From a virus, in IMG/VR virus record IMGVR_UViG_3300028048_000073, positions 1 through 62,659 of that record: a DNA stretch of 62,659 bases; one strand, given 5' to 3'. This document shows positions 4,282 through 59,860 of this stretch, in pieces. How positions within the stretch are numbered: the first letter of the stretch is position 1; each line of letters begins with the position of its first letter. Both the position numbers and the translations under genes were made by a program. The notes below the pieces were generated by a model. That model was not told where the DNA came from, did not search any database, and saw only the letters and a program-made list of their open reading frames with translations.

Positions 4282-4307
4282 AGGGATAGGAAAGGAGGGA
4301 ACGAAAA

Positions 4308-5384: not shown

Positions 5385-5431
5385 TTAATCTTATTGCTAT
5401 TGCCTCTATTTAACACAAAGGAGATGATATA

Positions 5432-9306: not shown

Positions 9307-9388
9307 AATTGGACAAAAATAAGCATTTCTCTTTCTCTTGTTTTTAAATATGAGAGAAAGAGAATTTGCATAAAAGAAAGGGTGATGA

Positions 9389-12864: not shown

Positions 12865-12886
12865 TCTTAAAGGAGGAAAATATACA

Positions 12887-27800: not shown

Positions 27801-30800
27801 AAGTGAAGAAACTCAAGGGCTTATAGACGATGAGTATGCTTCATTAGATAGCTTAAATTTATATGAAAAAGCTGGATTAGATGCTTTTAATAATATTGGA
27901 AAAGTAACTGATGCGACCAAGGATAACACAAAAGCAGAAAAAGATGCAGCAGAAGCACAACAAGAATTGCTCGATTTGTTAAATGAAGAAATAGATGCAT
28001 ATCATGATGTTACGCAACAAATTGAGCGCCATACGACAGCATTAAATCGTCTTCAAAAAGCTCAAGAAAAAGCCACCGGAAAAACATTAATTAAAAATCT
28101 TCAAGATCAGATGAAGGCATATCAAGATCTAAATAATGACTATGCAGACAAGCAGTTCTTACAATATGAAGAGGCTGCTGCTTATAGAGTCCAACTTGAA
28201 GAGCAGGGTGTTGCTTTTGATGAAAACGGTGTCATTAGCAATTATAGTGATATTCTTAATCAAAAACAAAAAGAAATTAATGCTGATCTAGCATGGTATA
28301 ATTCTCTAAGTGCAGAGGATCAAGAGGCACAAAAAGATTGGATTGAATCTCGACAAGCAGAGTATGATAGCTTAGTAGATCTTATTGGCAATTATGACCA
28401 GCTATGGAATCAAGATATTCCTGATTTGGCAGATGAAATAGCTGAGAATATTGATAAACAAGTTGAGCTTGAATTAGAGATTAAAAAACAAATTGTTCAA
28501 ATTGAGGTAGATAAGGGTTCCTTAAAACGAATGGAGATGGAACTTAATAAAACACTCGATAATGTACAAGAGAAAGATTTAGAGAGAAATCTTGCCTATA
28601 ATATCCAATCTTATTTTACCTATAGTGATGAAGAAAAGGCAAAATTAAAAAGATATTTAGAGGCAAAGCAGAAAAAAGATGAAGCAGATACAAGTGGAGA
28701 AGACCTATCAGCAGCAGATTTGGAGAACTATAGGGAAGCATTAGAAGATTATAATTCAATAATGCAAGAAAAGGCTAAGCAAGCGAATGAGATAATTTCA
28801 AGTGCTTTTGATGGCTTAAATGAAAAAATTGAAAGACAAAAAACTCAATTTGAAACTATGTCTAAATTATTTGAACATGATATGAACCTTATAAAATTAA
28901 GATATGGTGATCAAGCTTTTGAACAATTGAAGACTCTTTACGCGGCAAGAGAAGAAAACGCAAAAGCACAGCTTAGTAATGCGAATTTGGCTTTAGAAGT
29001 CGCTCAAAAAGAACTAGCAGCTGCGCAAGCAAAAGGAGATTTAGATTTAGTGCAGGCGGCGCAGGATAAAGTAACATCAGCATTGGAAGCACAGAGACAA
29101 GCCGTCATTGATGGTATTAATGCAATTCAAGATACTGCAATGAATACTGTCGATGCTATCTTTGCGCATTTAGATGAACAAGTTGCTGGAGTTTCTTTTG
29201 AAAAAATGAAAAAACAATGGGATGACATGGAAAAGGATTCTGCTGATTATTATGATGCTATTAATGGAGCGTATGAGATAGAGAAATTACGTACTAATAT
29301 GAAAAAAGCAATTAATGAATCTGGAAGTGCGGCTACACAAAAGGCATTAAATAATTTAATGAATGAAGAAATTACAAAATTACAACAAAAAGATAAATTA
29401 TCAAAATATGATATTGAGAGAGCTAATGCTTTATTTGATATAGAACAAAAACGTGCTGCTTTTAGAGAAGCGCAAAACAATAAATCTAAAATGCGTTTAC
29501 GTAGAGATGCATCTGGTAACTATTCTTATCAGTTTGTTTCTGATGAAGATAAAGTAACTTCTGCAATACAAGATTTGGCAGATGCTCAAAATCAATTATA
29601 TAATATAGACAAGGAAGCATATAAAAATAATCTTGAAAAAATGCAAGAATACTACTTGGAATACCAAGAAGAAATGAAGGCGGCGGCGAACGCTAGCGCA
29701 GAAGAACGACAAGCAATCGAAGACAGATATATGGAACGTGTTGCTGAACTTCAAGAAGAAAATAGAGATGCAAGTAGGAACCTAATTCAAGATGTTGTAA
29801 ATGATAGCGAAATATTAACTGGAAAGAGTATTGAAAATATAGAAGATATGACTCAAGCCGAAGTAGATGCGCTTATGGGGAGTGCTATTCCTGCATGGAA
29901 GTCTTATCTTGGTGTTATGAGTCGATCAAAAGACTTATTGGCCGATATGAAACAAGCTGGACTGGATGCCTCTCAGGTTTTTGACACTTCAAAAGCAAAA
30001 ATTGATATTGAAATGGCTCTTAATGGACTATCATGGGATAGCTTAATAGAAGGCTTTGATCCAGCTGTAGAAAACATAAAAACAATGACATCCTCAACAA
30101 ATGAGATTGCGCAAGAGGTAAAGAATATTTCTGCAGGGGTTAGTCAATTTATAGAAGCTATTAAGTCTAACAATTTCACAGAGGGGCTAGAAAAATTTGT
30201 GATGGCTTTAGAAAATGGAACATTAATTACGCCTGCAATTAATATTTTACCTCAAAGAAATGCCTATATTTCTTCTGATAATATGGATACTATTGTTGAT
30301 TCTGCCGCTAGTCCAATGGATAGAATAATTACATCATATACACAACTTAAAGGGGAAGAGGCAAGAGCTCGTCGAGATCAACTTATTGATAATGGAGTGA
30401 TTTTTGATGCTGATGGAATTATTAATAACTATGCTGAAATTATAAAGCAAAAACAATTGGGGCTTAGCGCCGATTCAGCATGGAGCAGTTCCTTAAGTGG
30501 AGAAGATCAAGAGATACAGAAAGATTGGATTGAATCTCGTCAAGCAGAATATGATAATCTCATAGATTTAATTAGCGGTTATGACCAGTTATGGAATCGA
30601 GATATTCCTGCTTTAACAAATGAAATAACAAAAATCGCAGAAGAAAAAACGAGTAATGATTTACAAGAACGAGTTAGCGATTTAATAGATAATTCCATGT
30701 TTGTTTCTGAAACAGTTCAATTTTTAGCAGATAGGTTATCTAAGGTATATTCTCAGCAGTCTGAAATACTAAGCGAGACGATGGATTATTTACATACTTT

Positions 30801-35596: not shown

Positions 35597-35791
35597 ATGC
35601 AATTAATAAAACAACAACAATTATATCAAAATATTGAAAAGGTTATTTTTGAAAGCGAATTGTCTGTAGACATTGTTTATTTTATTATAAAAGATATCGA
35701 AAGGGAGCTAGCTAATCTATACCAAACAGCTCTTCAAGAAGAAATTAATAACAATATTTCAAAAGAGGAAAGTGATCAAAATGAAGATTGA
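35597..35791 (+). CDS. small hypothetical protein
   Basis: 64-aa ORF after a GGAGGG RBS. Confidence 0.3.
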   Translation: MQLIKQQQLYQNIEKVIFESELSVDIVYFIIKDIERELANLYQTALQEEINNNISKEESDQNED

Positions 35792-36185
35792 TTCTTTGAT
35801 AATGACAACAATATTGAGTATTTTTATTCCAGTTATCACATCAGTTTTAACTGTGCTTGTTAAGCGATGGGTGGATGAAAAAATTAAAGATATGGAAAAT
35901 AAAAAATTAAAAGCTCTTATCTCTGAGGGAACAAATATTATTTTAGATTCTGTTAATTATGTTCAACAGACTTATGTAGATGCTTTAAAGGGACAAGACT
36001 TTTTTGACACACAATCACATCAAGAAGCTTTTTACATGGCGCGAGATCGCGCCTTGGAGCTCCTTCCGCAAGAGATTTACGATACCATAGAAAAAAGATA
36101 TGGTAATGTAGACATTTTCGTAGAAACAATGATTGAAAGTTATATAGCTAAAAATAAACAAAAAGTCGAAAAAAAAGAGCTGTAA
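35781..36185 (+). CDS. single-pass membrane protein (holin-like architecture)
   Basis: N-terminal TM segment ILSIFIPVITSVLTVLV; AAGAGGAAAG RBS; followed by a clean terminator. Confidence 0.45.
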   Translation: MKIDSLIMTTILSIFIPVITSVLTVLVKRWVDEKIKDMENKKLKALISEGTNIILDSVNYVQQTYVDALKGQDFFDTQSHQEAFYMARDRALELLPQEIYDTIEKRYGNVDIFVETMIESYIAKNKQKVEKKEL

Positions 36186-36199
36186 AGCTCTTTTTTTTG
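36176..36199 (+). terminator. rho-independent terminator: agagct-gtaa-agctct plus T8
   Basis: seen directly. Confidence 0.55.
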
Positions 36200-36259
36200 G
36201 ACTACTTTATTTTGTTATATCTATTTATTTTTTATATAAAAATAAAGGAGGGGTTGTTC

Positions 36260-36700
36260 ATGGCGCAACTATTAGCAACTTATTCTGTTGCAGAAATTTT
36301 AGTATTTATTGTTCTTTTAGCTATTGCTACAAAAGGTGTTGTTACTTTTTGGGACTGGGGCGCAGAGAGGCTTCGCAAAGTGTTTCATAAAGAAACGCAG
36401 CAAGAATTGGATAGAGATAAAATAAATCAAATTGCTGAAAAACAAGAAAAATTTTTTGATGACCTACAAGAGATGAACAAAAAAATTAGTATTCTTGTAG
36501 ATTCAGATAAAGATGATATTAAGGCTTTTATTACAGATAAGTATCATCATTTTTGTTATGATAAGAAATGGATTGATGATTATAGCTTGGATTGTATTGA
36601 AAGAAGATATTCTCATTATAAAAATGAGGGTGGCAACTCTTTTATTGCTACATTAATGGGGGAGCTTAAAGCGTTACCAAAGCAACCACCGCAGCCTTAA
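36260..36700 (+). CDS. membrane-anchored hypothetical protein
   Basis: ATG after an AGGAGGGG RBS; N-terminal TM segment ILVFIVLLAIA; track ORF 36197 trimmed. Confidence 0.45.
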   Translation: MAQLLATYSVAEILVFIVLLAIATKGVVTFWDWGAERLRKVFHKETQQELDRDKINQIAEKQEKFFDDLQEMNKKISILVDSDKDDIKAFITDKYHHFCYDKKWIDDYSLDCIERRYSHYKNEGGNSFIATLMGELKALPKQPPQP

Positions 36701-47545: not shown

Positions 47546-47580
47546 GGGCAACGTTGATTTATTGCGTTGCCCTTGTTTTT
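47546..47580 (+). terminator. rho-independent terminator: gggcaacg-loop-cgttgccc plus TTGTTTTT
   Basis: seen directly. Confidence 0.6.
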
Positions 47581-47614
47581 ATATACTGATGACAGAGGAA
47601 AGGAGTGTAAAAAA

Positions 47615-48052
47615 ATGGCTTATCAATCTACAAGTGGATTTTTTCCGCAACAACCAATAAATCCTTATGTGCCACAGTTTCCAACTCAAAGATATTTTGG
47701 GGTAGAACAATCAGCTATTCCACAAGGCTTTTTAAAAGGAAGGCCTGTTTCTTCCATTGATGAGGCGAGAGTAGCACAAATAGATTTCGATGGAAGCTTG
47801 AACATTTTTACCGATATCGCAAATAAAAAAATATATACAAAGCAAATTAACATGGATGGAACGTCAAACTTTAATACATATTGTCTGACTGCGCCAGAAC
47901 CAGAAAAGCCAGCAGCGCCCGCAATTAATTTAGATGAATATGTGACAAAGAATGAATTGAATACGTTATTATCACAACTAACATCTACTATTGCAGCAAT
48001 AGAACAAAGAATACAGAAAAAAGAAAATGCGGAAGCAGGATCTAAATTTTAA
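47615..48052 (+). CDS. hypothetical Pro/Gln-rich protein
   Basis: ATG after a GAGGAAAGGAG RBS; track ORF 47567 trimmed. Confidence 0.45.
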   Translation: MAYQSTSGFFPQQPINPYVPQFPTQRYFGVEQSAIPQGFLKGRPVSSIDEARVAQIDFDGSLNIFTDIANKKIYTKQINMDGTSNFNTYCLTAPEPEKPAAPAINLDEYVTKNELNTLLSQLTSTIAAIEQRIQKKENAEAGSKF

Positions 48053-48063
48053 GAGGTGATTTT

Positions 48064-48300
48064 ATGCCAATCAATGGATTACAATTAATACAAATGATAA
48101 AAAGTGGAAATAACCCACAGCAACTTGTTATGTCAGTTTTAAATCAGAGAGCGCAAAGCAATCCCATGTTTGCGAATATGCTTGCCTTAGCAAATAAAAA
48201 TGATACTGCTGGTTTGGAACAGATAGCAAGAAACCTCGCGAAAGAGCGAGGAATGGATTTTGATAAAGAATTTGCTAATTTTAAGCAAATCTTTAAATAA
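48064..48300 (+). CDS. small hypothetical protein
   Basis: 78-aa ORF, AGAGGTG RBS. Confidence 0.4.
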   Translation: MPINGLQLIQMIKSGNNPQQLVMSVLNQRAQSNPMFANMLALANKNDTAGLEQIARNLAKERGMDFDKEFANFKQIFK

Positions 48301-48327
48301 ATATTTTTTTGAAAGGAGAACAGATAT

Positions 48328-49203
48328 ATGTTCAACACAAGTAAAGACAGCGGTTATAGTTTATCTGATATTGCCGCAGTAACAGGCAATGGATACGGCG
48401 GCAACCGCGGTGATGGTATTTTTGGTGATGGAGGCTCTTGGTGGATAATTCTATTTATCCTGCTCATCTTCGGTGGATGGGGTGGAAATAACTGGGGTGG
48501 AAATGGAAACAGCGGAATAAACGGCATCCTCCCAGTAATGGCTATGAACAGTTCAGCTGCAACTGATGTTCAAAGAGGATTCGATCAATCCGCTGTTATG
48601 AATGCTTTATCAGGGCTAACATCTGCAGTCTCTAATGGTTTTGCGAACGCAGAGGTTACAAGATGCAATGCCCAAGCTAATTTATTGTCCACTCTTGGCA
48701 GTAACCAAATGGGACTATATCAAACCCTCAATGCAAATCAAAATGCGACAACAGCAAACATGAATGCGCTTGCAATGAGTCTACAGAATTGTTGCTGCGA
48801 TAACCGTGCAGGACTAGCTGATTTGAAATATACTGTAGCAACTGAGAATTGCGCAGATAGAACAGCTCTTAACGACGGTATTAGAGATTTAATGGCTGCG
48901 GGTACTGCCAATACCCAAGCATTAATTAATTCTCAGACAGCAGGTTTCCAAGCAATTCAAGACAAACTTTGTCAGATGGAAATTGACGCTCTTAAAGATA
49001 AGAACGCAGAGCTTCTCGCTCGTAATAATGCACTTGAATTTGCTCAGACCCAGACTGCACAAACAGCTCAGATTCTTGCGGACAACGCTGCTCAAACAGC
49101 TACATTGGAACAATATCTCAACCCTGCTCCAATTCCAGCCTATGTAGTTCAAAATCCAAATTGTTGCAGCCAGCAATATTTTGGATGCGGTTGTGGCGCA
49201 TAA
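48328..49203 (+). CDS. Gly-rich membrane protein with Ala/Asn/Gln-rich repeats and Cys clusters (NCCCDN, NCCSQQYFGCGCGA)
   Basis: 291-aa ORF, AAAGGAGAA RBS; TM segment WWIILFILLIFGGW flanked by GGxGG/NWGGNGN. Confidence 0.5.
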   Translation: MFNTSKDSGYSLSDIAAVTGNGYGGNRGDGIFGDGGSWWIILFILLIFGGWGGNNWGGNGNSGINGILPVMAMNSSAATDVQRGFDQSAVMNALSGLTSAVSNGFANAEVTRCNAQANLLSTLGSNQMGLYQTLNANQNATTANMNALAMSLQNCCCDNRAGLADLKYTVATENCADRTALNDGIRDLMAAGTANTQALINSQTAGFQAIQDKLCQMEIDALKDKNAELLARNNALEFAQTQTAQTAQILADNAAQTATLEQYLNPAPIPAYVVQNPNCCSQQYFGCGCGA

Positions 49204-49225
49204 TTTGAAAGGAGAGTATTAAACA

Positions 49226-49660
49226 ATGGCAGAATATACAAGTAATGCCTTGCAGACAGTAGCTGCAGGACAAAATGTACTTTTTACTGAGACACCAATT
49301 CCCTGTAATAGGGGCTATGTCCTTCATCGTGAGGGATCTGGTATTCTCACTTTACGCGGCATTGTGAATAATTGTAACGGGTGTTTTGCCCGTTACAAGG
49401 TTTCCTTTGGCGCAAATATAGCTCTCCCTGAAGGCGGTACCGTTGAAGCAATTTCATTGGCTTTAGCTATTGATGGAGAACCTATTCCAACAAGCTCAAT
49501 GATTGTAACTCCCGCCGCAGTGGAAGAGTTTGATAACGTGTATGCGTCTATTTTCATCACGGTGCCCAGAGGTTGCTGCTATACAATAGCAGTTGAAAAT
49601 ACAAGCACGCAAGCTATCGACGTTCAAAATGCAAATTTAATTATAGAAAGGACGGCGTAA
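49226..49660 (+). CDS. BclA C-terminal-domain-like (C1q/TNF-like jelly-roll) protein
   Basis: 144 aa ending ...YTIAVENTSTQAIDVQNANLIIERTA; this parallels the Bacillus BclA C-terminus ...ITVIANTATAS...SASIIIEKVA, recalled from memory. Confidence 0.45.
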   Translation: MAEYTSNALQTVAAGQNVLFTETPIPCNRGYVLHREGSGILTLRGIVNNCNGCFARYKVSFGANIALPEGGTVEAISLALAIDGEPIPTSSMIVTPAAVEEFDNVYASIFITVPRGCCYTIAVENTSTQAIDVQNANLIIERTA

Positions 49661-49666
49661 TAGATA

Positions 49667-50260
49667 ATGAGTGTTGAAAGATTAAAAAGTATTAAAGAAC
49701 AGCTTATGAGTTGTGTAGAGTCTCAAATGCATAATCTAAAAGAAGTAGACGCAAAAGAACTTGGTGAAGCTGTTGATATGGTAAAAGATATGGAAGAGGC
49801 TATTTACTATTGTACAATAGTAGAAGCTATGAAGGAAACAGATAAAAAGCCTTCGGAAATCCAACCCGTTAATAATACATATTATTATGGAGGCGGCTAT
49901 CCAATTTACTATGGGGAAGATATGCGTATGATAGACCGACGCAATGGTCAAATGTATTATGATGGAAATAGAAGTACAATGCCATCCAATATGAATACTC
50001 GACCATATACAGACTGGTATGACCACGGACCTGAAGTTTCTCAAGTGAGAGATTCTCGTGAGGGTAGAAGTCCTATGTATAGAAAGATGTATATGGAAGG
50101 GCAGGAAAAACAGCATAATAAAGATACCCAAATGAAAGAATTAGAAAAATATATGCAGGAGCTCTCTACCGACATTACAGAAATGATTGCTAAAGCTTCT
50201 CCAGAGGAGAAAGCTATTTTACGTCAAAAAATGACTAATTTAGCTAATAAAATTGCTTAA
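49667..50260 (+). CDS. hypothetical Tyr/Met-rich protein
   Basis: 197-aa ORF. Confidence 0.4.
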   Translation: MSVERLKSIKEQLMSCVESQMHNLKEVDAKELGEAVDMVKDMEEAIYYCTIVEAMKETDKKPSEIQPVNNTYYYGGGYPIYYGEDMRMIDRRNGQMYYDGNRSTMPSNMNTRPYTDWYDHGPEVSQVRDSREGRSPMYRKMYMEGQEKQHNKDTQMKELEKYMQELSTDITEMIAKASPEEKAILRQKMTNLANKIA

Positions 50261-50580
50261 TGTTTATAATTAATGGAGAGACCTGGAATGTGAGATATGT
50301 AAACCCATATGATTCTTCTTTAAAACACTATAACAATAATACCTACGCATTAGGCTGTTGCAATAATATTGAAAAAACAATTTATATCAATAACACGCTA
50401 CGGGGGTCATTAGCTAAAAAAGTATTATGTCATGAAATTGCACATGCCGCAATGTTTTCGTATGGAGTTGATTTAACATATGAGCAAGAGGAATTAGTAG
50501 CAGATCTGATTGCTACATATGGGGATGAAATTATCTTTATTACAAATAAAATATTTAACAAATTAAGAGAGGGGTATTAA
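50260..50580 (+). CDS. small HExxH zinc-metallopeptidase-like protein (SprT / ImmA-IrrE-like motif LCHEIAHAAMFSYG)
   Basis: 106-aa ORF with TAATG overlap with the previous gene. Confidence 0.45.
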   Translation: MFIINGETWNVRYVNPYDSSLKHYNNNTYALGCCNNIEKTIYINNTLRGSLAKKVLCHEIAHAAMFSYGVDLTYEQEELVADLIATYGDEIIFITNKIFNKLREGY

Positions 50581-50594
50581 CCCTCTCTTTTTTA
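50566..50594. terminator. terminator hairpin agagaggg-gtattaa-ccctctct plus T6, between convergent gene blocks
   Basis: seen directly; convergent genes end on both sides. Confidence 0.6.
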
Positions 50595-53049: not shown

Positions 53050-55242
53050 TTATTCTCCTATTGCATGATCTGTTACATGAACGTAGCGATTAACAAATTC
53101 ATCCATTCGTCCTTGATTTGGAACAGTTGTAGAAATATAACCACAAACTCTACGAGCAATATTCATTTTATCTGTGTTAGTATTTCCGCAATTTGGACAT
53201 TTATAATAGTGTTTGCCTAACTCGTTGGTTTTAATCTCAATTTCTCCATCATAACCACACTCTTGGCAATAGTCTGACTTAGTATTTAATTCCGCGTAGC
53301 CAATATGATGAGAAATAAATTTAATGATTTCTAAAATCGCAGGTATATTATCTTGTAAGTTAGAAGTTTCTCCATAAGAAATATATCCGCCAGGACTTAG
53401 TTTCTGATATTCTGCTTCTATTTTTAGCTTATCAAATATATTAATATGCTCTTTAACATCTACATGATAAGAATTAATTATATATTCTTTATCAGTAATA
53501 TCTTTGATAATTCCAAAATCTCTTTGAAGAGCCTTTGCAAATTTCCAAGTCAAACTCTCTTCCGGAGTGCCATATACAGAGTATCCAATATCTTCTTCTT
53601 GTGCCCATTTGTTACACATATCATTAAGATGTTGCATTAATTCTTTTGCAAATTTCATACCTTGGGGAGTGGTATGACTAAAACCAGTCATTACTTTTGT
53701 AGTTTCATAAACTCCAACATAACCAAGAGAAGAGGTCATATAACCATGATGAACTAAATCATATAAAGTTTCTTCGGGGTCTAATCGAGCCAATGCTCCA
53801 TGACACCAAAGAATTGGTGCTACCTTTGCCTTAGTGTTGGATAATCGTTCTGCTCTAATTTTTTGAATTTGGTGACATTCTTCTAAATACTTATCCAATA
53901 TTTCGTAAAAATCTTTATTTTGTTTTTGTGATAGTAAAGCGATATAAGGAAGATTGATAGTAGTAACGCCGCAATTTGCGCGTCCATAATACTTGGGCTG
54001 TCCCTGAACGTAATCTTTTGCTTTTGCTAAATTTCCATATTTGCTTGAAAAAGTATCTGGGGATAAACTACTGCGGCATCCCATGCTCGGCCAACAACCG
54101 CCCTTATTATGAGTCATTACTTCTGCACTTACATAGTCTGGAACCATACGTTTTGCTGTGCATTTTGCAGCTAACTCTGTTAGCCACCAATACTCAGATT
54201 GTTCGTTATCATTATCTTTATCCAAAATGTATAGAAGTTTTGGAAAAGCTTGTGTTATGGGTATTCCCTGTGGATTTTTTAAACCTTCAATTCTTTGTTT
54301 AAAAATTTCTGCGGTTAATTGAGCTACTTCATTTTTATACTGTTTTTGCTCATTGAGATACATACATACGCTAACAAATGGCGACTGACCATTAGTTGTG
54401 GTGAAACTATTTAGCTGATAGTTCATTGTTTGAACAGCGTCTTCAATTTCTTTAGCTAAATCTTGTTTTGCTAGTTTTTCCGCTTGCTCACGAGTAACAA
54501 TCTTTTTATATTTTTCTAAATATCTTTCATAGCTTGCTCGAACAAAAGGAGCTAAATGTGTGAGTGAAAAAGTACAACCTCCATATTGCGAACTAGCCAC
54601 TGCACTTACAATTTGTGTAGCAATAGTCATGGCAGTAATAAGTCTATGGGGTTTTTCGATAAGAACTCCATTAATTACAGTACCATTTTGTAGCATATCA
54701 TTAAGATTAATTAAGCAACAGTTAGACAATGTTTCTTGTGCCATATAATCCATATCGTGAATATGAATAATTCCCTTTTCATGATCTTGAATTATTTCTT
54801 GCGGGAATATATATTTTTTTGCAATATATTTAGAAAGAATCCCCGCCAAATAGTCACGCTGAGTAGTTACTAATTCAGCTCTTTTATTAGAGTTTTCCGT
54901 TTTCAAATATTCATTTTCACCTTTAACAAGTTCTAGGGCAGGCTTATCAAGAGGGGTAGTTCTCATAATGTCGCGCAATTGGCGATATTCAATATAAGCA
55001 TGAGCAACATCTCTTCTTTTTGTTGCCATGAGACCATTTTCAACATAGTCCTGAATTTCTTCTATTGTCAAAACCTTCTCTTTGCAAACTATTTCAATAT
55101 AGTCTGCAATTTTTTCTGCTTTCGAGATAGCATAATCTGTAAGTTGTCCATCTACAGCTGCAAAAGCTTTTAATACGGCTTTTACGATTTTATCTTTATC
55201 AAATTCAACTTTTCTGCCATCTCTTTTTATTATGTAAACCAT
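53050..55242 (-). CDS. nrdD: anaerobic ribonucleoside-triphosphate reductase (class III)
   Basis: 730 aa; ATP-cone-like N-terminus; C-terminal Zn site CQECG...CPNCG; glycyl-radical motif RRVCGY. Confidence 0.85.
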   Translation of the reverse strand: MVYIIKRDGRKVEFDKDKIVKAVLKAFAAVDGQLTDYAISKAEKIADYIEIVCKEKVLTIEEIQDYVENGLMATKRRDVAHAYIEYRQLRDIMRTTPLDKPALELVKGENEYLKTENSNKRAELVTTQRDYLAGILSKYIAKKYIFPQEIIQDHEKGIIHIHDMDYMAQETLSNCCLINLNDMLQNGTVINGVLIEKPHRLITAMTIATQIVSAVASSQYGGCTFSLTHLAPFVRASYERYLEKYKKIVTREQAEKLAKQDLAKEIEDAVQTMNYQLNSFTTTNGQSPFVSVCMYLNEQKQYKNEVAQLTAEIFKQRIEGLKNPQGIPITQAFPKLLYILDKDNDNEQSEYWWLTELAAKCTAKRMVPDYVSAEVMTHNKGGCWPSMGCRSSLSPDTFSSKYGNLAKAKDYVQGQPKYYGRANCGVTTINLPYIALLSQKQNKDFYEILDKYLEECHQIQKIRAERLSNTKAKVAPILWCHGALARLDPEETLYDLVHHGYMTSSLGYVGVYETTKVMTGFSHTTPQGMKFAKELMQHLNDMCNKWAQEEDIGYSVYGTPEESLTWKFAKALQRDFGIIKDITDKEYIINSYHVDVKEHINIFDKLKIEAEYQKLSPGGYISYGETSNLQDNIPAILEIIKFISHHIGYAELNTKSDYCQECGYDGEIEIKTNELGKHYYKCPNCGNTNTDKMNIARRVCGYISTTVPNQGRMDEFVNRYVHVTDHAIGE

Positions 55243-55290
55243 TATAATTGGCCTCCTTAGATATATAAATTAGTTTAAAGGAAAGCATCC

Positions 55291-55896
55291 TTATAATATA
55301 TTATTTTTTGAATTGAAATATTTAATTGCTTCGTCCATTATATTTTTAACTAAAACTTCCGTTGGGAAATCTTCATAATCAGTCTGCGTATATCCTAAAT
55401 AAAGATGAGGATACTTGTTAAAAAATGCCTCAAAATCTTTTTTATCGGTATGATAACGTCTTATAATTTCTTCTATATCTGGAGAAATTTCTCTGTTCAA
55501 ACTTCTAATTAATCGTACTTTATCAAAGCAATCCAAAAAACAAGGAAAAACACATATATCTTGCTTCTCTTTCTCGCGGCAAAGCAAAAAATCAATTCCT
55601 GTAGGATTAAAAACGCCAATATTTATTTTTGAAACTCTAAGATCCTCAATACCTGTTCCATAATACCAATTATTGAAAACAGTTGTTTCTAAAAATTTAC
55701 CTTGAGCTTCTTTTAAAGCAAAGTCCATTTTATTGACAAAATGATAATTGATTCCATCTACCTCTCCAATACGCTTTGGGCGAGTGGTGTATGAAACAAT
55801 AGTATGAATATCTTTAGGATATTGTTTTTCAATGGCTTTGAGCAGCGTGTCTTTCCCCGCGCCGCTCTTACCAAATATAGCAAGTATGTTATACAT
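55291..55896 (-). CDS. gmk: guanylate kinase-like (d)NMP kinase
   Basis: GKSGAGKDTL P-loop and TTRPKRIGEVDGINYHFV match Gmk TTRPPRxGExDGxDYxFV. Start trimmed to MYNIL after a GGAGGA RBS. Confidence 0.65.
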   Translation of the reverse strand: MYNILAIFGKSGAGKDTLLKAIEKQYPKDIHTIVSYTTRPKRIGEVDGINYHFVNKMDFALKEAQGKFLETTVFNNWYYGTGIEDLRVSKINIGVFNPTGIDFLLCREKEKQDICVFPCFLDCFDKVRLIRSLNREISPDIEEIIRRYHTDKKDFEAFFNKYPHLYLGYTQTDYEDFPTEVLVKNIMDEAIKYFNSKNNIL

Positions 55897-58800
55897 ATTC
55901 TTCCTCCGTTTTGTATCTTTCACTTGTCAAGACTAAGCTGTCTTTATTTACTTTTGTTATTTTATATAACTGATGACCAGGGGTATCAAAATAAGTCTTT
56001 GATACAAAAGTATCATCTTTACGATATCCTTGAATCATAAGTTTTGTTCCTCTCTTGAACCAAGATTTTTCCTTTACGTGCTTATCGCCTGCTTCATCTT
56101 TTTCAGATATCTGTTTCTTAAACATAGCATAATACTCTTTTGTGAACTTTACATTGACGACACCATCCACTGTCAGCAGAGCAATGGATGCCTTTGTATC
56201 ATTCTTACCGATAACAGTGCCTGCAATTCTTTTTATTTTATAAACAGGAAGTCGTCTACCATTCCTCTTATAATAATGGTCAACTTCTGGCTGCTGTGGC
56301 ATTGAGAAGAAGTTTTCAATTCCATATCTATTGAAATCAACATTTGCTAACTCATGTGGATGTGAGTAGAAACATAATGCAGACATTTCCCAGAATGAGA
56401 TACTTCCTTCGGCATAATGATCCCAATAATCTAAGAACAGCTTTATATTCAATTCTTGTAGAACTTGCTCTTGATATTCTTTAAGCCAAGTGCGGGCGCC
56501 ATCCATGAACTTATCATATAACTTTGCCCATACGGAGACCTTTATGCAAGGAGTTCCCGCAATTATTTCAACCTTATCAATATCAAAATACTGCTCATAG
56601 AAGTTGTAACAGTCATCATCAAAAGCATAATAGCCCCTTACTTTTCGCTTTGCTTTAAGATATTTATTAAAGTTAAAAGCATATTTGTATTGAACCATAT
56701 TCTCAGGAATTAAATCTTGGTTAATTAGTCCATTAAAATTCTGTAAGGTTAATCTCCGCTTCGGCTCACAAGCCTTTGCACAGAAGATTGTCATAATCAA
56801 AATGCGGGGGTCAACCCCTAATTCCATTGCCCATTCTCTCTCCAAGTTATCAAATGCACCACCTTTAATAAGTGATAACATCGTTGGCTTTTTCAAAGGG
56901 CATCTATTCATAAAATCAAAGAAGCTAACATAAGGTCTGCCCGCAATAATCTGGTCAATCTGTGCTTCATTAACCTGTGTAACTGGCTTTAATCCATATA
57001 GAATTTGATTATTTTTTGCATCCGGTTTAAACGTATATCCTGAACTATTGATATCAATAATAGAAACTTTAATTCCTCTATTAATTAATGTTCCAATAGC
57101 ACGAGCAATTTTTTCATAGTTGGCATTTTTTGCTTTTTTAGCATTATCTTCTTCTTCTTCTTCTTCATCCCATTCATTTTCTTCTGAATTGCTATTCACA
57201 ATTAAGCATGCTGTATTCCAATAAATGGGATTCCAATTTGTAGCTAAAAATGCTGTCTGCAGTCCTATGAAACTATAAGCAAGCGCATGGATGACGCTAA
57301 AACTGTAGGTAGCTTGAGGTTTTACCCCACAATCCCATATATATCTTCCTAAGTTAGGAGATTTTGCTCTTGTTTGAACTTTTATTTTTAATTCATTAAT
57401 GCGTTTTGTTTGTTTCTTTGAAATAATTTTGCGTGCGTCGTTACTTTCTGCCAGCGAGAAATTACAAATATTGGCGTCCATCAACATCCGCATAAGATCT
57501 TCTTGAGCGATTGGAACACCGCAAGAGGGTTCAAAATACGGTCTAACAGCTTCTACTTCTTCTCTTGTCAAACCATATTTTCTCATTTCATCGTACCACA
57601 ATGCAATATTCTTCTTAAAACGGATATATTTTTCCATAGGCGGTTCCGCGCCTTTTTCGCTTGGTGCTAATCTCATAAGTCCGTTACTAAGTGCTAATTC
57701 TTCAACTGACCGGGGAGCAATTTTCTTTGCCGCTTGGCTTCCTACGTCTGAGTCAAATTGGAATAAATCTAGCACACATCCTTCTTTGATCGCTTGCCAA
57801 ATTTCTTTTCGATTGGTAGGAAGAACCTCAGGGTGAAGATATTTATTGTAGATTTCTCTTAACGACAAATCCTTTTCTATTTGCCCATCTTCTTGTAAAA
57901 GTTTTATTGTTTGTAATATTTTATCTTGGATTTTTGTGATCAGAACGTCATATTTAATGTTCCCTGCCGCCTCGGCTTGATGAAGATCCCATTGTGTAAT
58001 AATATCTCCATTTGGCGCACGCATAAAAGCACACTTTTCAAAAGGATTTCCTTCAAAAAAGATAACCCCGGATGCATGCTCTCCTCTGCCGCTAATTGTT
58101 TGCTGCACGCCTAACGCAATATCAATTAATCCAGGGTATTGTTCAACCTCTCTTACAAAAGGCATTACAGGTTTTCTCGCCTTTTCTTCATTTCCATAAA
58201 GAACATCCTCTAATGACCAAGCTTCTCCTCTTTCAGTGGGAATTAGACTAGAAAGATACTGACCGATGTCAATATCAATGCCTTCTGGCCACTCTTCGGA
58301 ACGATAACCTCGACAAGCTACAAGAATTGCAGATTTTGCACTCTCTGTTCTAAAAGTTGCAACAAGAGTACAGCCTAAATTTTCCTTAAAAATATCGTCT
58401 AAATCATCATCTAAATAAGCTTTTCGTTCTGCTTTAATTCGTTTCAAGATAGTAGGGCGACGATCTGAAGCTACATCTATGTCAACATCAGCAATTTCAA
58501 GTCTTTCACTGTTCATATAACGAAACCAAGGGAGGTTCCATTTGACCGGGTCTAGCTGCGTAATTCCCAATAACCAGTGATTTAGTCCTGCACAGGCGCT
58601 TCCTCGTCCCGCTCCGACCGTGCTTCCGCAATCCCATATCATATCAATATAGTGTTGCAAAGTAACTGGATAAGAAAACATATTGGTATGGATTTTTTCT
58701 CCAATGATTTTCTTAGTACAAGCTTCTTCTTCAAGCCTTTCCAAGTAAATAATTTTATCAGGGTCTTCTTCCCAATTAATGTTTTTGCTCTTTAATCCTT

Positions 58801-59860
58801 CAAAACATTGATTTACCCAATATCTTTCAACCTCATTTGTTGAACTAAATAACGAACTGAGGACTGGAAATTTTTCTTTAGGCAGTATAGATTCTCTTTT
58901 AGGATAATCTTTGATATCAACAGTAGGTATCTCTGGATGAGAAAGAATAGAATACTCTTCTACTTTATTATATATATCATTACTATTTTGGAACATTTTT
59001 TGAACATAGAGTCTATCATAGTCAGACTGTGCAAGATGTTCAATTATTTCTTCGTTGGATTGAAGATAAGCATACTGATAAAAAGCATCAACTTCTCTTT
59101 CGCCCTCTTTAGAATTAAGAAAAGCTTTATGGATGGGGCGTTGTTCTGGAGTTAAATAATGAGAGTCTGACCCTATTACCATAGGAACATTAAAGCATGA
59201 GCTAACTGAAAGCAATCTTCTATTAACCATAACCTGATCTTTTGAACAACCAGGCGCACATTCAATATAAAAATCTTCTCCAAAAAGGTCTTTACACATT
59301 AATATAAAATTAACAATTTCATCATGTGCTCTTGCTACTTCTACATGATCTTCTAACCGCTCAGCTTCAATCAACTTTTTAGTATTGTAAGATAGACACC
59401 CAGCCAAGCAAGCTGTTGTTGCTATTAAAGTATTAGGATACTTTTTACAAATTTTCTTTAAGTCATCATAGGTTGTTACTACCCGTTCCATCCTGCGGTC
59501 AACGTAAGAATTGAGCCAAGCTTTTGAAGATAATTCTCTTAACGCAATATGTCCTTGAAGATTTTTTGCAATCAAGATAAAATGGTAATAAGGTTGATTT
59601 TTACTTCTATCTCCACATAGGTAAATTTCATTTCCAAGAGCGACTTTAAAATCGGGGTGTTTTTCTTTTATCTGCATAGCATATTTGTTTGCGTGAATAT
59701 GTGCACTAAGGCAGTCATGATCAGTTATTGCTATTCCGCTCAAACCCAATTCTATTGCTTTGTCAATTAACTGCTCCGGTGCATTAATTGCATCAATGAG
59801 ACGTAAAGAAGAATAATAGGTATGAGAATGTGGTTCAAAGCGAGTGTCTGTTATTTGCAT
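55889..59860 (-). CDS. dnaE: DNA polymerase III alpha subunit (DnaE-like, N-terminal PHP domain)
   Basis: 1323 aa; PHP motifs HSHTYYS and AITDHD at the N-terminus; length and architecture of pol III alpha. Confidence 0.75.
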   Translation of the reverse strand: MQITDTRFEPHSHTYYSSLRLIDAINAPEQLIDKAIELGLSGIAITDHDCLSAHIHANKYAMQIKEKHPDFKVALGNEIYLCGDRSKNQPYYHFILIAKNLQGHIALRELSSKAWLNSYVDRRMERVVTTYDDLKKICKKYPNTLIATTACLAGCLSYNTKKLIEAERLEDHVEVARAHDEIVNFILMCKDLFGEDFYIECAPGCSKDQVMVNRRLLSVSSCFNVPMVIGSDSHYLTPEQRPIHKAFLNSKEGEREVDAFYQYAYLQSNEEIIEHLAQSDYDRLYVQKMFQNSNDIYNKVEEYSILSHPEIPTVDIKDYPKRESILPKEKFPVLSSLFSSTNEVERYWVNQCFEGLKSKNINWEEDPDKIIYLERLEEEACTKKIIGEKIHTNMFSYPVTLQHYIDMIWDCGSTVGAGRGSACAGLNHWLLGITQLDPVKWNLPWFRYMNSERLEIADVDIDVASDRRPTILKRIKAERKAYLDDDLDDIFKENLGCTLVATFRTESAKSAILVACRGYRSEEWPEGIDIDIGQYLSSLIPTERGEAWSLEDVLYGNEEKARKPVMPFVREVEQYPGLIDIALGVQQTISGRGEHASGVIFFEGNPFEKCAFMRAPNGDIITQWDLHQAEAAGNIKYDVLITKIQDKILQTIKLLQEDGQIEKDLSLREIYNKYLHPEVLPTNRKEIWQAIKEGCVLDLFQFDSDVGSQAAKKIAPRSVEELALSNGLMRLAPSEKGAEPPMEKYIRFKKNIALWYDEMRKYGLTREEVEAVRPYFEPSCGVPIAQEDLMRMLMDANICNFSLAESNDARKIISKKQTKRINELKIKVQTRAKSPNLGRYIWDCGVKPQATYSFSVIHALAYSFIGLQTAFLATNWNPIYWNTACLIVNSNSEENEWDEEEEEEDNAKKAKNANYEKIARAIGTLINRGIKVSIIDINSSGYTFKPDAKNNQILYGLKPVTQVNEAQIDQIIAGRPYVSFFDFMNRCPLKKPTMLSLIKGGAFDNLEREWAMELGVDPRILIMTIFCAKACEPKRRLTLQNFNGLINQDLIPENMVQYKYAFNFNKYLKAKRKVRGYYAFDDDCYNFYEQYFDIDKVEIIAGTPCIKVSVWAKLYDKFMDGARTWLKEYQEQVLQELNIKLFLDYWDHYAEGSISFWEMSALCFYSHPHELANVDFNRYGIENFFSMPQQPEVDHYYKRNGRRLPVYKIKRIAGTVIGKNDTKASIALLTVDGVVNVKFTKEYYAMFKKQISEKDEAGDKHVKEKSWFKRGTKLMIQGYRKDDTFVSKTYFDTPGHQLYKITKVNKDSLVLTSERYKTEEEYV

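What the first reader, a model, noticed from the sequence alone, without database searches (positions are those of the whole stretch)
47546..50594. Terminator-bounded six-gene terminal operon with a Gly/Cys-rich membrane protein, a BclA C-terminal-like protein and an HExxH peptidase-like protein
After the last fibre-like genes, a separate unit runs from the terminator at 47546 to the terminator at 50566. It encodes a Pro/Gln-rich protein and a 78-aa protein. It also encodes a 291-aa protein with a GGxGG-flanked TM helix, Ala/Asn/Gln/Thr repeats and Cys clusters (NCCCDN, CCSQQYFGCGCGA). Next come a 144-aa protein resembling the BclA C-terminal C1q/TNF-like domain of Bacillus/Clostridium exosporium glycoproteins (ending ...NANLIIERTA, compare BclA ...SASIIIEKVA), a Tyr/Met-rich protein, and a 106-aa HEIAH metallopeptidase-like protein. 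The Cys-rich plus BclA-like pairing recalls exosporium basal-layer and nap proteins, while the Gly-rich membrane protein looks bacteriocin- or holin-like. No canonical endolysin is visible anywhere in the window. The unit may be a lysis/decoration module, a spore-surface mimicry or adsorption module, or a toxin/immunity system.
Basis: partly seen in the sequence, partly recalled or inferred. Interest (0 to 1): 0.65.

Follow-up and report, generated by a model that had tools for sequence, protein, structure and literature searches.

The report
Mobile phage cassette with BclA-like knob
The six terminator-bounded genes are one variant of a very common, undescribed phage gene cassette; it pairs a cysteine-rich membrane-anchored stalk protein with a small BclA/TNF-fold protein and a peptidase, its function is unknown, and a spore-related role looks unlikely.

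Summary
Six tightly packed + strand genes (47615-50580) lie between two real intrinsic terminators, and every quoted motif is present. The unit is not specific to this phage. It is a variant of a conserved cassette found in all 51 non-redundant Firmicutes-phage loci examined (a further 4 loci, Bacteroides and archaeal viruses, carry only the p291 family). The usual order is: Cys-His enzyme, PQ-rich beta-domain protein (p145 family), small helical protein, membrane/helical/Cys-rich protein (p291 family), stand-alone TNF/C1q-fold protein (p144 family), helix-disorder-helix Tyr/Arg-rich protein.

The cassette moves between unrelated phages, virulent and temperate. The p291 family also occurs in crAss-like, Bacteroides and archaeal viruses. 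This argues against spore mimicry.

Best model, low confidence: a cytoplasmically assembled stalk-and-cap complex, with p144 docking the Pro/Cys tail of p291 as ExsF docks BclA leaders, matured by a peptidase.

The parts
47546..47581 (+). Intrinsic terminator that ends the tail/fibre operon: 9-bp stem GGGCAACGU/GCGUUGCCC, 9-nt loop, then a U-tract.
   Evidence: Sequence read. Fold -16.2 kcal/mol, z -4.3, 0 of 200 shuffles as stable. A terminator-like hairpin lies within 300 nt upstream of the cassette in about half of 52 related loci (crude scan).
47615..48052 (+). p145: Pro/Gln-rich N-terminus, small beta-rich core, C-terminal helix. Member of the p145 family (phrog_21718, unknown function).
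   Evidence: ORF; SD and ATG. PHROG hit 1.9e-6. An HMM built without window-type sequences gives E 1.4e-12. hhalign gives 96% probability, E 2e-9. The family has more than 4400 clusters, none with a Pfam domain. Alignment A4.
48064..48300 (+). p78: small Asn/Gln-rich protein with no hydrophobic segment. It holds the position of the 'small' family (phrog_22984) of the canonical cassette, but homology is not shown.
   Evidence: ORF. No Pfam or PHROG hit. Leave-out HMM E 0.11 and hhalign not significant. The correspondence rests on position only.
48328..49203 (+). p291: conserved N-terminal peptide (aa 10-21), Gly-rich flanks around a hydrophobic anchor (aa 37-51), predicted long helical region (aa 76-264, heptad-like mainly 187-255), invariant CCC (aa 155-157) and DKxC (aa 212-215), and a Pro/Cys-rich C-tail (aa 264-291). 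Member of phrog_16490.
   Evidence: Translation. PHROG 4.8e-33. Alignment A2 gives the invariant residues. Hydropathy 1.82 over aa 31-49, the only membrane-grade segment in the operon, and 10 Cys. The AF2 model is helical but poor, pLDDT 53. Heptad scan. Cross-phylum alignment A3.
49226..49660 (+). p144: stand-alone TNF/C1q-fold (BclA-CTD/ExsF-like) jelly-roll protein with invariant C27 and C117-C118. It has no signal peptide, no collagen region and no N-terminal extension. Member of phrog_20016.
49667..50260 (+). p197: N-terminal helices, Tyr/Met/Gly/Arg-rich low-complexity centre, C-terminal helices. It holds the position and has the architecture of the canonical helix-disorder-helix partner, but homology is not shown.
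   Evidence: Translation; composition. Alignment A6 shows the shared architecture. Leave-out HMM E 0.8; hhalign finds only a weak C-terminal match, E 0.011 with 4% probability.
50260..50580 (+). p106: small HExxH (HEIAH, aa 58-62) zincin-like peptidase with a Glu cluster about 18 residues downstream. Its start overlaps the p197 stop.
   Evidence: Peptidase_M78 23.2 bits (cut-off 22), DUF6782 23.9 (27), SprT-like 18.4 (25.6). phrog_1233 1.6e-14 and phrog_87 metallo-protease 1e-5. HExxH regex. Among p144-containing non-redundant loci it is present in 5, none of which has the Cys-His enzyme.
50565..50589 (.). Two-way intrinsic terminator between the cassette and the convergent RuvC-like gene on the - strand.
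   Evidence: Found on both strands by the scan. Folds at -15.7 (+) and -14.1 (-) kcal/mol, z about -3.7.

Best explanation
The six genes are the window-type variant of a self-contained, horizontally mobile late-gene cassette of gut and rumen phages.

Shown.
- The cassette is conserved in gene order and tightly coupled.
- Its centre is a gene pair. p291 has a hydrophobic N-terminal anchor, a long helical stalk and invariant Cys motifs. p144 is a stand-alone TNF/C1q-fold protein translated immediately after it.
- A small peptidase is almost always present, of one of two unrelated types that replace each other.

Inferred mechanism.
- The proteins are made late and assemble in the cytoplasm, because none has a signal peptide. 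Firmicutes also largely exclude Cys from exported proteins (my knowledge of the literature).
- p291 forms an oligomeric stalk tethered to the membrane by its N-terminal helix.
- A p144 trimer caps it by docking the near-invariant Pro/Cys-rich C-tail (NPAPIPAYVVQNPNCC...GCGCG). The precedent is ExsF, a stand-alone TNF-fold trimer that docks the Pro-rich leader peptides of BclA and F-Anchor in its inter-subunit clefts. Vicinal Cys pairs on both partners could add a metal or disulfide clasp.
- p145, p78 and p197, all rich in low-complexity sequence, act as adaptors or assembly partners.
- p106 (a Cys-His enzyme elsewhere) matures one component in catalytic amounts.

Most likely role, held weakly. 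The complex is a binding or structural surface assembly that becomes exposed when the cell lyses, on membrane fragments or on particles. I think this more likely than a lysis enzyme, a toxin or a spore-coat mimic.
For: Operon and terminators.

Cassette conservation.
- p291 and p144 are present in 52 of 52 first loci.
- The full canonical order occurs in 43 of 55 non-redundant loci, and the window type in 4.
- The window's p145, p291 and p144 still match when window-type sequences are left out of the HMMs.

Coupling: the p291 stop and p144 start are 3-36 nt apart with GGAGG in most loci.

Docking precedent: the ExsF/F-Anchor leader crystal structure, with peptides in clefts at the trimer interface (PMC12357932, read).

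C-tail conservation: P266, P270, V274 and P277 are invariant; P268, Y272, N276, C279, C280, G286, C287, G288 and C289 are at 90% or more.

Tail and partner go together: the two archaeal-virus p291 homologues lack both the tail and a p144 neighbour.

Peptidase replacement: among p144-containing non-redundant loci, the Cys-His enzyme is in 44 and p106 in 5, never together. The Cys-His family has invariant D16, C17, H97, D108 and D111. Bacteroides-phage p291 genes also sit beside HExxH proteins.

No export signals: only p291 has a hydrophobic segment, and no protein has a lipobox.

Mobility: L004 and L005 share DNA essentially only across the cassette. The identical p144 sits beside different tail and lysis genes. 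The position varies within late regions.

Selection: p144 is the most conserved member, 58% median identity against 29-50% for the others. A host-range determinant would be expected to vary faster.
Against: - No experiment or annotated relative assigns any function. Pfam, PHROGs, NCBIfam, PADLOC and PDB sequence searches are all empty or 'unknown function'.
- The p291 model is poor (pLDDT 53). Its oligomeric state and topology are not established. K+R counts on the two sides of the hydrophobic segment are equal (0.38 and 0.34), so the positive-inside rule does not decide.
- A clear heptad pattern covers only about aa 187-227.
- The p291-p144 contact is inferred from gene coupling, co-occurrence and analogy. 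No complex prediction could be run.
- The tail/partner co-occurrence rests on only two archaeal examples.
- p78 and p197 match the canonical cassette by position and architecture only.
- A membrane anchor is odd for something that ends up on a particle.
- A cassette that travels between unrelated virion types argues against a specific virion docking site.
Confidence: 0.3

Rival explanations
1. Virion add-on fibre or decoration. p291 would be a trimeric shaft and p144 its distal knob, a split version of the shaft-plus-jelly-roll-knob fibres of PRD1 P5, reovirus sigma1 or adenovirus. The complex would attach to progeny particles through p145 or the p291 N-terminus. The low-complexity proteins would be chaperones and the peptidase would release the fibre from its membrane tether.
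For: - The cassette is always co-oriented with late or structural genes, sometimes embedded among them. Examples are between tail-fibre genes and the holin, between a connector gene and terL, and followed by tail-fibre-like genes in L012 and L037.
- It occurs in both virulent and temperate phages.
- Public annotations call p291 homologues 'viral fiber' or 'spike'.
- Strong SDs precede p291 and p144, while the peptidase has only a coupled start.
Against: - The cassette is exchanged between phages with unrelated tail and lysis modules and spans very different genome types. A specific docking site on the virion is therefore hard to picture.
- p144 is the most conserved member, whereas receptor-binding heads usually vary fastest.
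- p291 has a membrane-grade hydrophobic helix.
- The cassette is often set off by a terminator.
- No virion proteomics exist for any carrier.
Confidence: 0.22
2. Lysis or egress accessory, or a proteolytically primed membrane effector. p291 would act on the cytoplasmic membrane at the end of infection in a holin-, XhlA- or spanin-like way. The peptidase would activate it, and p144 and the other proteins would regulate it.
For: - p291 has a single hydrophobic helix followed by a helical or coiled-coil domain.
- The cassette often lies next to holin and endolysin genes, on either side of them. In a crAss-like phage it lies just downstream of them.
- A dedicated peptidase is almost always present.
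- The N-terminal peptide of many p291 proteins resembles a double-glycine leader: the strict pattern matches 20 of 68 family members and 0 of 3967 background ORFs.
- No recognisable endolysin was found in this window.
Against: - In this window the holin is 11 kb upstream, and in L062 the cassette is next to terL, not lysis genes.
- Relatives already carry a complete holin and endolysin pair.
- No lipoprotein partner exists that would make a two-component spanin, and the likely hosts are mostly monoderm.
- Forty-eight of the 68 p291 family ORFs fail the strict leader pattern, many of them lacking the essential G at -2, and a second N-terminal variant (MVMPVAPMYGG) exists.
- This model gives no role to a highly conserved TNF-fold protein.
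Confidence: 0.15
3. Envelope modification for superinfection exclusion or lysogenic conversion. The membrane-anchored complex would block DNA entry or mask a receptor in infected or lysogenic cells.
For: - The position is moron-like in temperate relatives. It lies after the lysis genes and before the integrase or the prophage end, and is often preceded by a terminator.
- The cassette is horizontally mobile.
- In an archaeal provirus, the p291 homologue sits among surface and membrane protein genes next to the integrase.
Against: - The cassette is also present in phages that look virulent. These are this window, with close relatives on roughly 138-kb contigs and no integrase seen, and Ceridwen.
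- No consistent sigma-70 promoter precedes it.
- The soluble partners lack export signals.
- Six genes is far more than known exclusion systems need.
- There are no PADLOC hits.
Confidence: 0.12
4. Bacteriocin-like toxin released by phage lysis, with immunity. p291 would be a leader-bearing membrane-active protein, p144 its targeting domain, the peptidase its maturase, and a small protein the immunity factor.
For: - p291 has a Gly/Trp-rich hydrophobic segment, and some members have a double-glycine-leader-like N-terminus.
- A Cys-His enzyme with a papain/C39-like pattern is encoded next to it.
- No export machinery is present, which fits release by lysis.
Against: - The leader pattern is inconsistent across the family.
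- The Cys-His family shows no sequence match to C39 in Pfam or PDB.
- p291 is far larger than class II bacteriocins.
- It is hard to see the benefit for a virulent phage.
- None of the small proteins has the membrane segments typical of immunity proteins.
Confidence: 0.06
5. Spore-surface (exosporium) mimicry or modification of the lysogen's spores.
For: - The fold is closest to BclA CTD, F-BclA CTD and ExsFA.
- Cys-rich and Tyr-rich partners recall cross-linked spore layers.
- The proteins lack signal peptides, as mother-cell-assembled coat proteins do.
Against: - Carriers include a virulent phage of Butyrivibrio fibrisolvens, a genus described as non-sporulating (my knowledge).
- They also include what appears to be a large virulent phage, this window.
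- The p291 family extends to Bacteroides, crAss-like and Methanomassiliicoccales viruses.
- There is no sequence-level match to BclA_C, CotY/ExsY or ExsF, no collagen region and no exosporium leader.
Confidence: 0.03

Closest known systems
ExsF (ExsFA/BxpB) docking of BclA and F-Anchor leader peptides in the Bacillus cereus-group exosporium (PDB 7r1m, 9h3d; PMC12357932)
   Different: There is no detectable sequence similarity. The docked peptide would be C-terminal, not N-terminal. The stalk is alpha-helical, not collagen. The stalk carries a membrane-type anchor. The genes are in phages, including phages of non-sporulating hosts. The p291-p144 interaction itself is not demonstrated.
BclA and F-BclA C-terminal domains (Pfam PF18573, TNF/C1q superfamily; PDB 1wck, 9h38)
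   Different: Identity is 15-18%. No Pfam BclA_C hit appears at E<=1. p144 has no collagen-like repeats, no N-terminal targeting domain and no fusion to any stalk; all 150 listed relatives are 81-196 aa. It has invariant Cys residues.
Trimeric viral attachment fibres with a jelly-roll knob (PRD1 P5, reovirus sigma1, adenovirus fibre) and type II membrane TNF-family ligands such as EDA-A1
   Different: Here the stalk and head are separate polypeptides. The head has no export signal. The unit comes with three or four extra low-complexity proteins and a peptidase. No virion or surface location has been shown.
ImmA/IrrE (Peptidase_M78) and other small zincin-like phage peptidases, including the 'PolyVal metallopeptidase' annotation in Bacteroides phage C3_41T2LP
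   Same: p106 has HExxH and passes the M78 gathering score marginally. HExxH proteins also flank p291 homologues in Bacteroides and crAss-like phages.
   Different: There is no adjacent XRE/ImmR-type repressor substrate. p106 replaces a Cys-His enzyme in an otherwise structural-looking cassette. Profile comparison with the Bacteroides HExxH proteins is not significant (E about 0.01 over 11-26 columns).

Membership tests
BclA-type exosporium collagen-like glycoprotein | C-terminal TNF/C1q-like jelly-roll domain | tested here: met
BclA-type exosporium collagen-like glycoprotein | Sequence membership in Pfam BclA_C (PF18573) or C1q/TNF families | tested here: not met
   At E<=1 the only Pfam hit for p144 is a spurious MoCoBD_1 match. 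The family profile finds no BclA, ExsF or C1q chain in PDB at E<=10.
BclA-type exosporium collagen-like glycoprotein | Central collagen-like GXX repeat region and N-terminal exosporium-targeting leader | tested here: not met
   p144 has no (GXX)n run of 4 or more. The predicted fold starts at residue 2. All 150 listed relatives are 81-196 aa with no stalk.
ExsF/BxpB-like stand-alone TNF-fold docking protein | Stand-alone TNF-fold protein of about 140-170 aa | tested here: met
ExsF/BxpB-like stand-alone TNF-fold docking protein | Trimer that binds Pro-rich terminal peptides of a filament protein in inter-subunit clefts | not testable with these tools
   There is only indirect support. The genes are coupled, the Pro/Cys tail of p291 is conserved, and tail and partner are lost together in two archaeal viruses.
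Peptidase_M78 (ImmA/IrrE) zinc metallopeptidase | HExxH motif and a Pfam score above the gathering cut-off | tested here: met
   HEIAH at aa 58-62. PF06114 scores 23.2 bits against a cut-off of 22, which is marginal. DUF6782 and SprT-like score below their cut-offs.
Peptidase_M78 (ImmA/IrrE) zinc metallopeptidase | Pairing with an XRE/ImmR-type repressor substrate gene | tested here: not met
   No HTH protein is in the operon or adjacent to it. The neighbours are p197 and a convergent RuvC-like gene.
Holin | Small membrane protein with one or more TM segments matching a holin family and paired with an endolysin | tested here: not met
   p291 matches no holin family in Pfam or PHROGs. A separate holin is present at 35772-36185. 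Pore formation itself was not testable.
Two-component spanin (i-spanin plus o-spanin) | Type II membrane coiled-coil protein paired with an outer-membrane lipoprotein gene carrying a lipobox | tested here: not met
   The TM-plus-helical architecture is present. No cassette protein has a lipobox or signal peptide.
Double-glycine leader substrate with C39-type peptidase | Leader consensus L-12, S-11, E-8, L-7, I-4, G-2, G-1 conserved across the family | tested here: inconclusive
   The strict pattern is in 20 of 68 p291 family members and 0 of 3967 other ORFs. Many members lack G-2 or carry a different N-terminal motif.
Double-glycine leader substrate with C39-type peptidase | Adjacent peptidase belonging to family C39 | tested here: not met
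   The Cys-His enzyme of the canonical cassette has invariant C17, H97 and D108/D111. It gets no Pfam C39 hit and no PDB hit. It is absent from this window.
CotY/ExsY-type cysteine-rich exosporium or coat proteins | Sequence membership | tested here: not met
   p291 has no Pfam hit above noise, and its profile finds no PDB relative.
Known anti-phage defence systems (PADLOC) | Match of any cassette protein to a defence-system model | tested here: not met
   The only hit is a 14.5-bit, E 0.0034 match of the p291 helical region to candidate PDC-M40C.

The most novel reading that the evidence does not exclude
The cassette is a portable 'coat kit'. It would be a phage-borne counterpart of exosporium assembly. 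A TNF-fold docking trimer, a Cys-rich stalk, Tyr/Arg- and Gln-rich low-complexity proteins and a maturation peptidase would self-assemble in the cytoplasm. After lysis they would form a cross-linkable nap or fibre layer on progeny particles or membrane fragments. This would give gut phages of unrelated morphologies the same adhesive or protective surface. An equally unexcluded variant is a proteolytically primed membrane-insertion device resembling a class I fusion protein, with a Gly-rich hydrophobic N-terminus followed by a long helical stalk.
Probability: 0.12. Interest if true: 0.85.

Novelty: new variant of a known kind. Interest (0 to 1): 0.58.

Why it matters
Each of the three central families saturates or nearly saturates a search of 5.8 billion proteins. 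They occur in phages from human, lemur, rodent and ruminant gut samples. Yet every member is annotated as hypothetical or mislabelled as 'spike', 'viral fiber' or 'BclA protein'.

This work defines the cassette, its two variants, its core pair and its peptidase replacement. That turns scattered unknown PHROG families into one testable unit. A cultured system is available: phage Ceridwen on Butyrivibrio fibrisolvens DSM 3071, and the Vescimonas fastidiosa MM35 prophage.

If the stalk-and-cap model is right, the ExsF/BclA docking principle would extend from spores to viruses. It would also explain a large block of gut-virome dark matter. If the cassette turns out to act in lysis or exclusion, it would be a new multi-protein class of either function.

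Tried and rejected
1. DNA search of the region against 50,697 phage records found no match. Only protein-level relatives exist.
2. Pfam, PHROGs, NCBIfam and PADLOC scans of all six proteins and of canonical-cassette members gave no function except marginal M78 for p106.
3. Profile searches of five families against PDB sequences found nothing significant.
4. The AF2 model of p291 was too poor (pLDDT 53) for a fold search. That used the second and last structure job, so p145, p78, p197 and the complex could not be modelled.
6. I tested whether p291 and p144 are one protein made by stop-codon read-through or frameshift. Frames vary (0, 2 and 1 in 23, 13 and 5 loci) and a strong SD lies between the genes, so I rejected this.
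7. The double-glycine leader idea is striking in some members but inconsistent across the family. I kept it only as a weak lead.
8. I tested homology between the Bacteroides or crAss neighbours of p291 and the p144, p145, p197 and p106 families. hhalign found nothing significant, so the similarity is architectural only.
9. I had assumed the window's p78 and p197 belong to the canonical 'small' and helix-disorder-helix families. Leave-out HMMs and hhalign do not support homology.
10. A search for a conserved sigma-70 promoter upstream of the cassette found matches at chance level.
11. Six literature searches and three papers yielded no description of the cassette. They gave the ExsF docking precedent and the lifestyle and host of Ceridwen.
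12. The genome-contig scan returned only 7 MAG loci because the patterns were strict. Two bins (Methanobrevibacter, Fretibacterium) are probably mis-binned phage contigs.

Full report
**1. What is in the window**

Between 47546 and 50594 the + strand carries six closely packed ORFs.
- p145: 47615-48052. The longer TTG start at 47567 lies inside the upstream hairpin. The ATG at 47615 has a GGAAAGGAG ribosome-binding site.
- p78: 48064-48300.
- p291: 48328-49203.
- p144: 49226-49660.
- p197: 49667-50260.
- p106: 50260-50580.

The gaps are 11, 27, 22, 6 and -1 nt. The unit is bounded by two hairpin-plus-U-tract terminators.
- 47546-47572 folds at -16.2 kcal/mol, z -4.3. The pattern scan missed it because of its 9-nt loop.
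- 50565-50589 is a two-way terminator at -15.7 and -14.1 kcal/mol.

Only p291 has a membrane-grade hydrophobic segment (Kyte-Doolittle 1.82 over aa 31-49), and it has 10 Cys. No protein has a lipobox, a signal-like N-terminus or collagen repeats.

**2. The genome around it**

The window comes from a long-tailed phage.
- Its tape measure protein is 3040 aa (PhageMin_Tail).
- A holin lies at 35772-36185 among the tail genes.
- The - strand carries RuvC-like, dUTPase, NrdG, NrdD, PolIII-alpha (DnaE-type) and SF1 helicase genes.
- Close relatives of p144 (86-90% identity) sit on contigs of 137-139 kb, and no integrase was seen. The phage is therefore probably large and virulent.
- I found no endolysin domain in the ORFs I tested.

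**3. The six genes are one variant of a widespread cassette**

The adjacent p291 and p144 pair recurs in several public phage records:
- Butyrivibrio virus Ceridwen;
- Dulem viruses 33, 35 and 39;
- many human-gut phage contigs.

Each of the p291, p144 and p145 families returns thousands of clusters from a 5.8-billion-protein collection, none with a Pfam domain or an informative name.

I collected 68 loci from phage records, IMG/VR, MAGs and metagenome contigs. I then classified their ORFs with iterated HMMs. Among 55 non-redundant loci:
- 43 carry the same six genes in the same order. These are a ~125-aa Cys-His enzyme ('up', phrog_3754), p145 family (phrog_21718), a 64-99-aa helical protein (phrog_22984), p291 family (phrog_16490), p144 family (phrog_20016), and a 126-201-aa protein with helical ends around a Tyr/Ser/Arg/Gly/Asp-rich disordered centre.
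- 4 are of the window type (the window, L009, L051, L065). They lack the Cys-His enzyme and end with the HExxH protein p106.
- 4 (Bacteroides, crAss-like and archaeal viruses) carry only the p291 family.
- The remaining 4 are partial cassettes.

Among the 51 p144-containing loci, the Cys-His enzyme is in 44 and p106 in 5, never together. This is a non-orthologous replacement of one small peptidase-like enzyme by another. The Cys-His family has invariant D16, C17, H97, D108 and D111, a papain-like pattern with no Pfam or PDB match.

Two loci have the two halves of the cassette in swapped order (L041, L043).

A caution applies. When window-type sequences are left out of the HMMs, the window's p145 (E 1.4e-12; hhalign 96%), p291 and p144 are still clearly recognised. 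Its p78 and p197 are not (E 0.1-0.8). Those two correspond to the canonical genes only by position and architecture (alignment A6).

**4. The cassette is mobile and late**

- L004 and L005 share DNA essentially only across the cassette, while their tail and lysis genes differ. The identical p144 protein occurs in both backgrounds.
- The position varies but is always co-oriented with late genes.
  - After holin and endolysin and before the integrase or the prophage end (Vescimonas fastidiosa MM35).
  - Immediately before holin and endolysin, among tail genes.
  - Between a connector gene and terL.
  - At the end of the late operon in the large phage (and this window).
- A terminator-like hairpin precedes it in about half of the loci. 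No consistent sigma-70 promoter does.
- Carriers include phages judged virulent (Ceridwen: PMC7372960) as well as integrase-bearing prophages.

**5. What the parts look like**

*p144.*
- With a 39-sequence alignment, AlphaFold2 gives a confident all-beta model (pLDDT 86.4, pTM 0.80).
- At sequence level there is nothing: no Pfam BclA_C, C1q or TNF hit and no PDB hit with the family profile.
- An exhaustive profile search of 1.84 billion representatives finds 821 clusters. The 150 listed are all 81-196 aa, with no fusion to a stalk or collagen region.
- The nearest predicted viral structures are likewise stand-alone 130-145-aa proteins of uncultured sipho-, myo- and podoviruses, two of them auto-named 'BclA protein'.

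*p291.*
- It is predicted mostly helical with low confidence. A clear heptad pattern covers only about aa 187-227.
- Its conserved features (alignment A2) are:
  - an N-terminal peptide, [LMY]S[AP][AS]D[IVF]AAV[TM]G[NG] or a second variant MVMPVAPMYGG;
  - Gly-rich flanks around the hydrophobic helix;
  - an invariant CCC;
  - an invariant DKxC;
  - a near-invariant tail P-x-P-x-P-x-Y-x-V-x-N-P-x-C-C...G-C-G-C.
- The family extends to crAss-like Steigviridae, a Bacteroides uniformis phage and two Methanomassiliicoccales viruses.
- In the Bacteroides phages the neighbouring genes have an analogous look: a beta-rich Cys protein, a beta-plus-coiled-coil protein, an Arg/Asp/Tyr-rich protein and HExxH proteins. 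Profile comparison shows no significant homology to the Firmicutes partners.
- The two archaeal homologues lack both the Pro/Cys tail and a p144-like neighbour.

*Coupling and conservation.* The p144 start follows the p291 stop by 3-36 nt with a GGAGG in most loci, and the reading frames vary, so the two are coupled separate proteins. Across 44 canonical loci p144 is the most conserved member. Median pairwise identities are p144 58%, Cys-His enzyme 50%, p291 44.5%, small protein 40%, p145 37% and the disordered protein 29%.

*p106.* It passes the Peptidase_M78 gathering score marginally (23.2 against 22) and has HEIAH.

**6. How it most likely works**

The facts are as follows:
- a conserved, coupled pair of a hydrophobically anchored helical Cys-rich protein and a stand-alone TNF-fold protein;
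- two or three low-complexity partners;
- a replaceable peptidase;
- late co-orientation;
- no export signals;
- free exchange between unrelated phages.

The closest mechanistic precedent comes from the exosporium. There the stand-alone TNF-fold trimer ExsF binds the Pro-rich N-terminal leaders of the trimeric filaments BclA and F-Anchor, in clefts at its subunit interfaces (crystal structure described in PMC12357932).

By analogy I propose that a p144 trimer docks the conserved Pro/Cys tail of an oligomeric p291 stalk. Vicinal Cys pairs on both partners could form a metal or disulfide clasp. This is inferred from gene coupling, conservation, the joint loss of tail and partner in two archaeal viruses, and the fold.

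Assembly would be cytoplasmic. None of the partners has a signal peptide, and Firmicutes tend to exclude Cys from exported proteins (general knowledge, not tested here). The peptidase gene has only a coupled start, whereas p291 and p144 have strong SDs. This fits a catalytic maturation role.

What the complex is for remains open. My estimates:
- About 0.3 for a binding or structural assembly exposed at lysis without a specific virion site (best explanation).
- About 0.22 for a true virion add-on fibre.
- About 0.15 for a lysis or egress effector.
- About 0.12 for exclusion or lysogenic conversion.
- About 0.06 for a lysis-released bacteriocin.
- About 0.03 for spore mimicry.

The spore reading is disfavoured by the host range (Butyrivibrio, Bacteroides and methanogen viruses) and by the presence of the cassette in virulent phages.

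**7. Comparison with known systems**

By fold, p144 belongs with the TNF/C1q superfamily and is nearest to BclA-C and ExsF. It fails the sequence, collagen and leader criteria of BclA, so I do not file it as a BclA family member. It resembles ExsF in being stand-alone, but the defining peptide-docking function could not be tested.

p106 is a marginal M78 member without the usual repressor partner. p291 is not a holin, spanin or CotY/ExsY member by any test I could run. No defence-system model matches. The cassette as a whole has no described counterpart in the libraries or papers searched.

**8. Verdict**

The unit is better described as the window-type variant of a very abundant, mobile, functionally uncharacterised phage cassette. 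Its core is a stalk-plus-TNF-fold-cap pair with a replaceable peptidase. I rate it as a new variant of a known architectural kind, with moderate to good interest (0.58). Function is not established, but the module is common and sharply defined, and it is testable in a cultured phage-host pair.

Noticed in passing
window 21841-30963 (+): A single 3040-aa ORF with a PhageMin_Tail domain (7.2e-27), a tape measure protein. Its length implies an exceptionally long tail. It is followed by a 1500-aa ORF with no family match.
   Followed up: partly
window 35772-36700 (+): A holin (phrog_13712, 7.8e-23; weak Phage_holin_6_1) sits in the middle of the tail genes. The 167-aa gene after it has no lysin-like match in Pfam, PHROGs or PDB. 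No endolysin domain was found in any ORF tested in the window.
   Followed up: partly
window 2939-3560: About 620 bp of degenerate TG/TA-rich tandem repeats (periods 12-56). It coincides with the lowest GC (0.28) and the most extreme GC and AT skew in the window. The overlapping ORFs there are probably spurious. It could be a replication, packaging or regulatory region.
   Followed up: no
window 7015-7656 (+): An ORF with LAGLIDADG homing-endonuclease domains sits among the early structural or packaging genes.
   Followed up: no
L065/L066 13857-20435 compared with window 53050-59860 (-): In close relatives, nrdD is split into 162-aa and 568-aa parts around an HNH gene. PolIII-alpha is split around a GIY-YIG gene. 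Both genes are intact in the window (730 and 1323 aa). This suggests homing-endonuclease or intron insertions that vary between relatives.
   Followed up: no
L052 (crAss-like cr116_1) 4033-7008; L053 (Bacteroides phage C3_41T2LP) 4482-7727: p291 homologues in Bacteroides-infecting phages are annotated 'spike protein/glycoprotein' or 'outer capsid protein/viral fiber'. They are followed by a beta-rich Cys protein, a beta-plus-coiled-coil protein, an Arg/Asp/Tyr-rich mini-protein and HExxH peptidases. This parallels the Firmicutes cassette in architecture, but no homology is detectable.
   Followed up: partly
L054 4878-5759; L055 4860-5783 (Methanomassiliicoccales viruses vir215, vir335): phrog_16490 (p291 family) members occur in viruses assigned to archaeal hosts, next to a diversity-generating-retroelement tail gene and surface or membrane protein genes. 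They keep the CCC and DKxC-type motifs but lack the Pro/Cys tail and any p144 partner.
   Followed up: partly
L009 (contig CACYVR010000001.1, 138.8 kb, labelled Methanobrevibacter MAG): The closest genome-collection relative of the window phage is binned as Methanobrevibacter, and another relative as Fretibacterium. Given the bacterial-type DnaE polymerase and the holin, these are probably mis-binned phage contigs.
   Followed up: no
L004 8842-9147; L011 10911-11228; L034 10800-11120: Several canonical cassettes carry a seventh conserved gene of about 101-107 aa after the disordered protein, with N-terminus like MISRLELLQAIDECE... It is absent from the window type and has no family match. L067 has a 107-aa ORF (12829-13152) at the same position, but its sequence was not compared.
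   Followed up: no
L001 (Ceridwen) 8518-9312: In Ceridwen a 264-aa gene (QHJ73770) is inserted between the p144 homologue and the disordered-protein homologue. This shows the cassette tolerates insertions at that junction.
   Followed up: no
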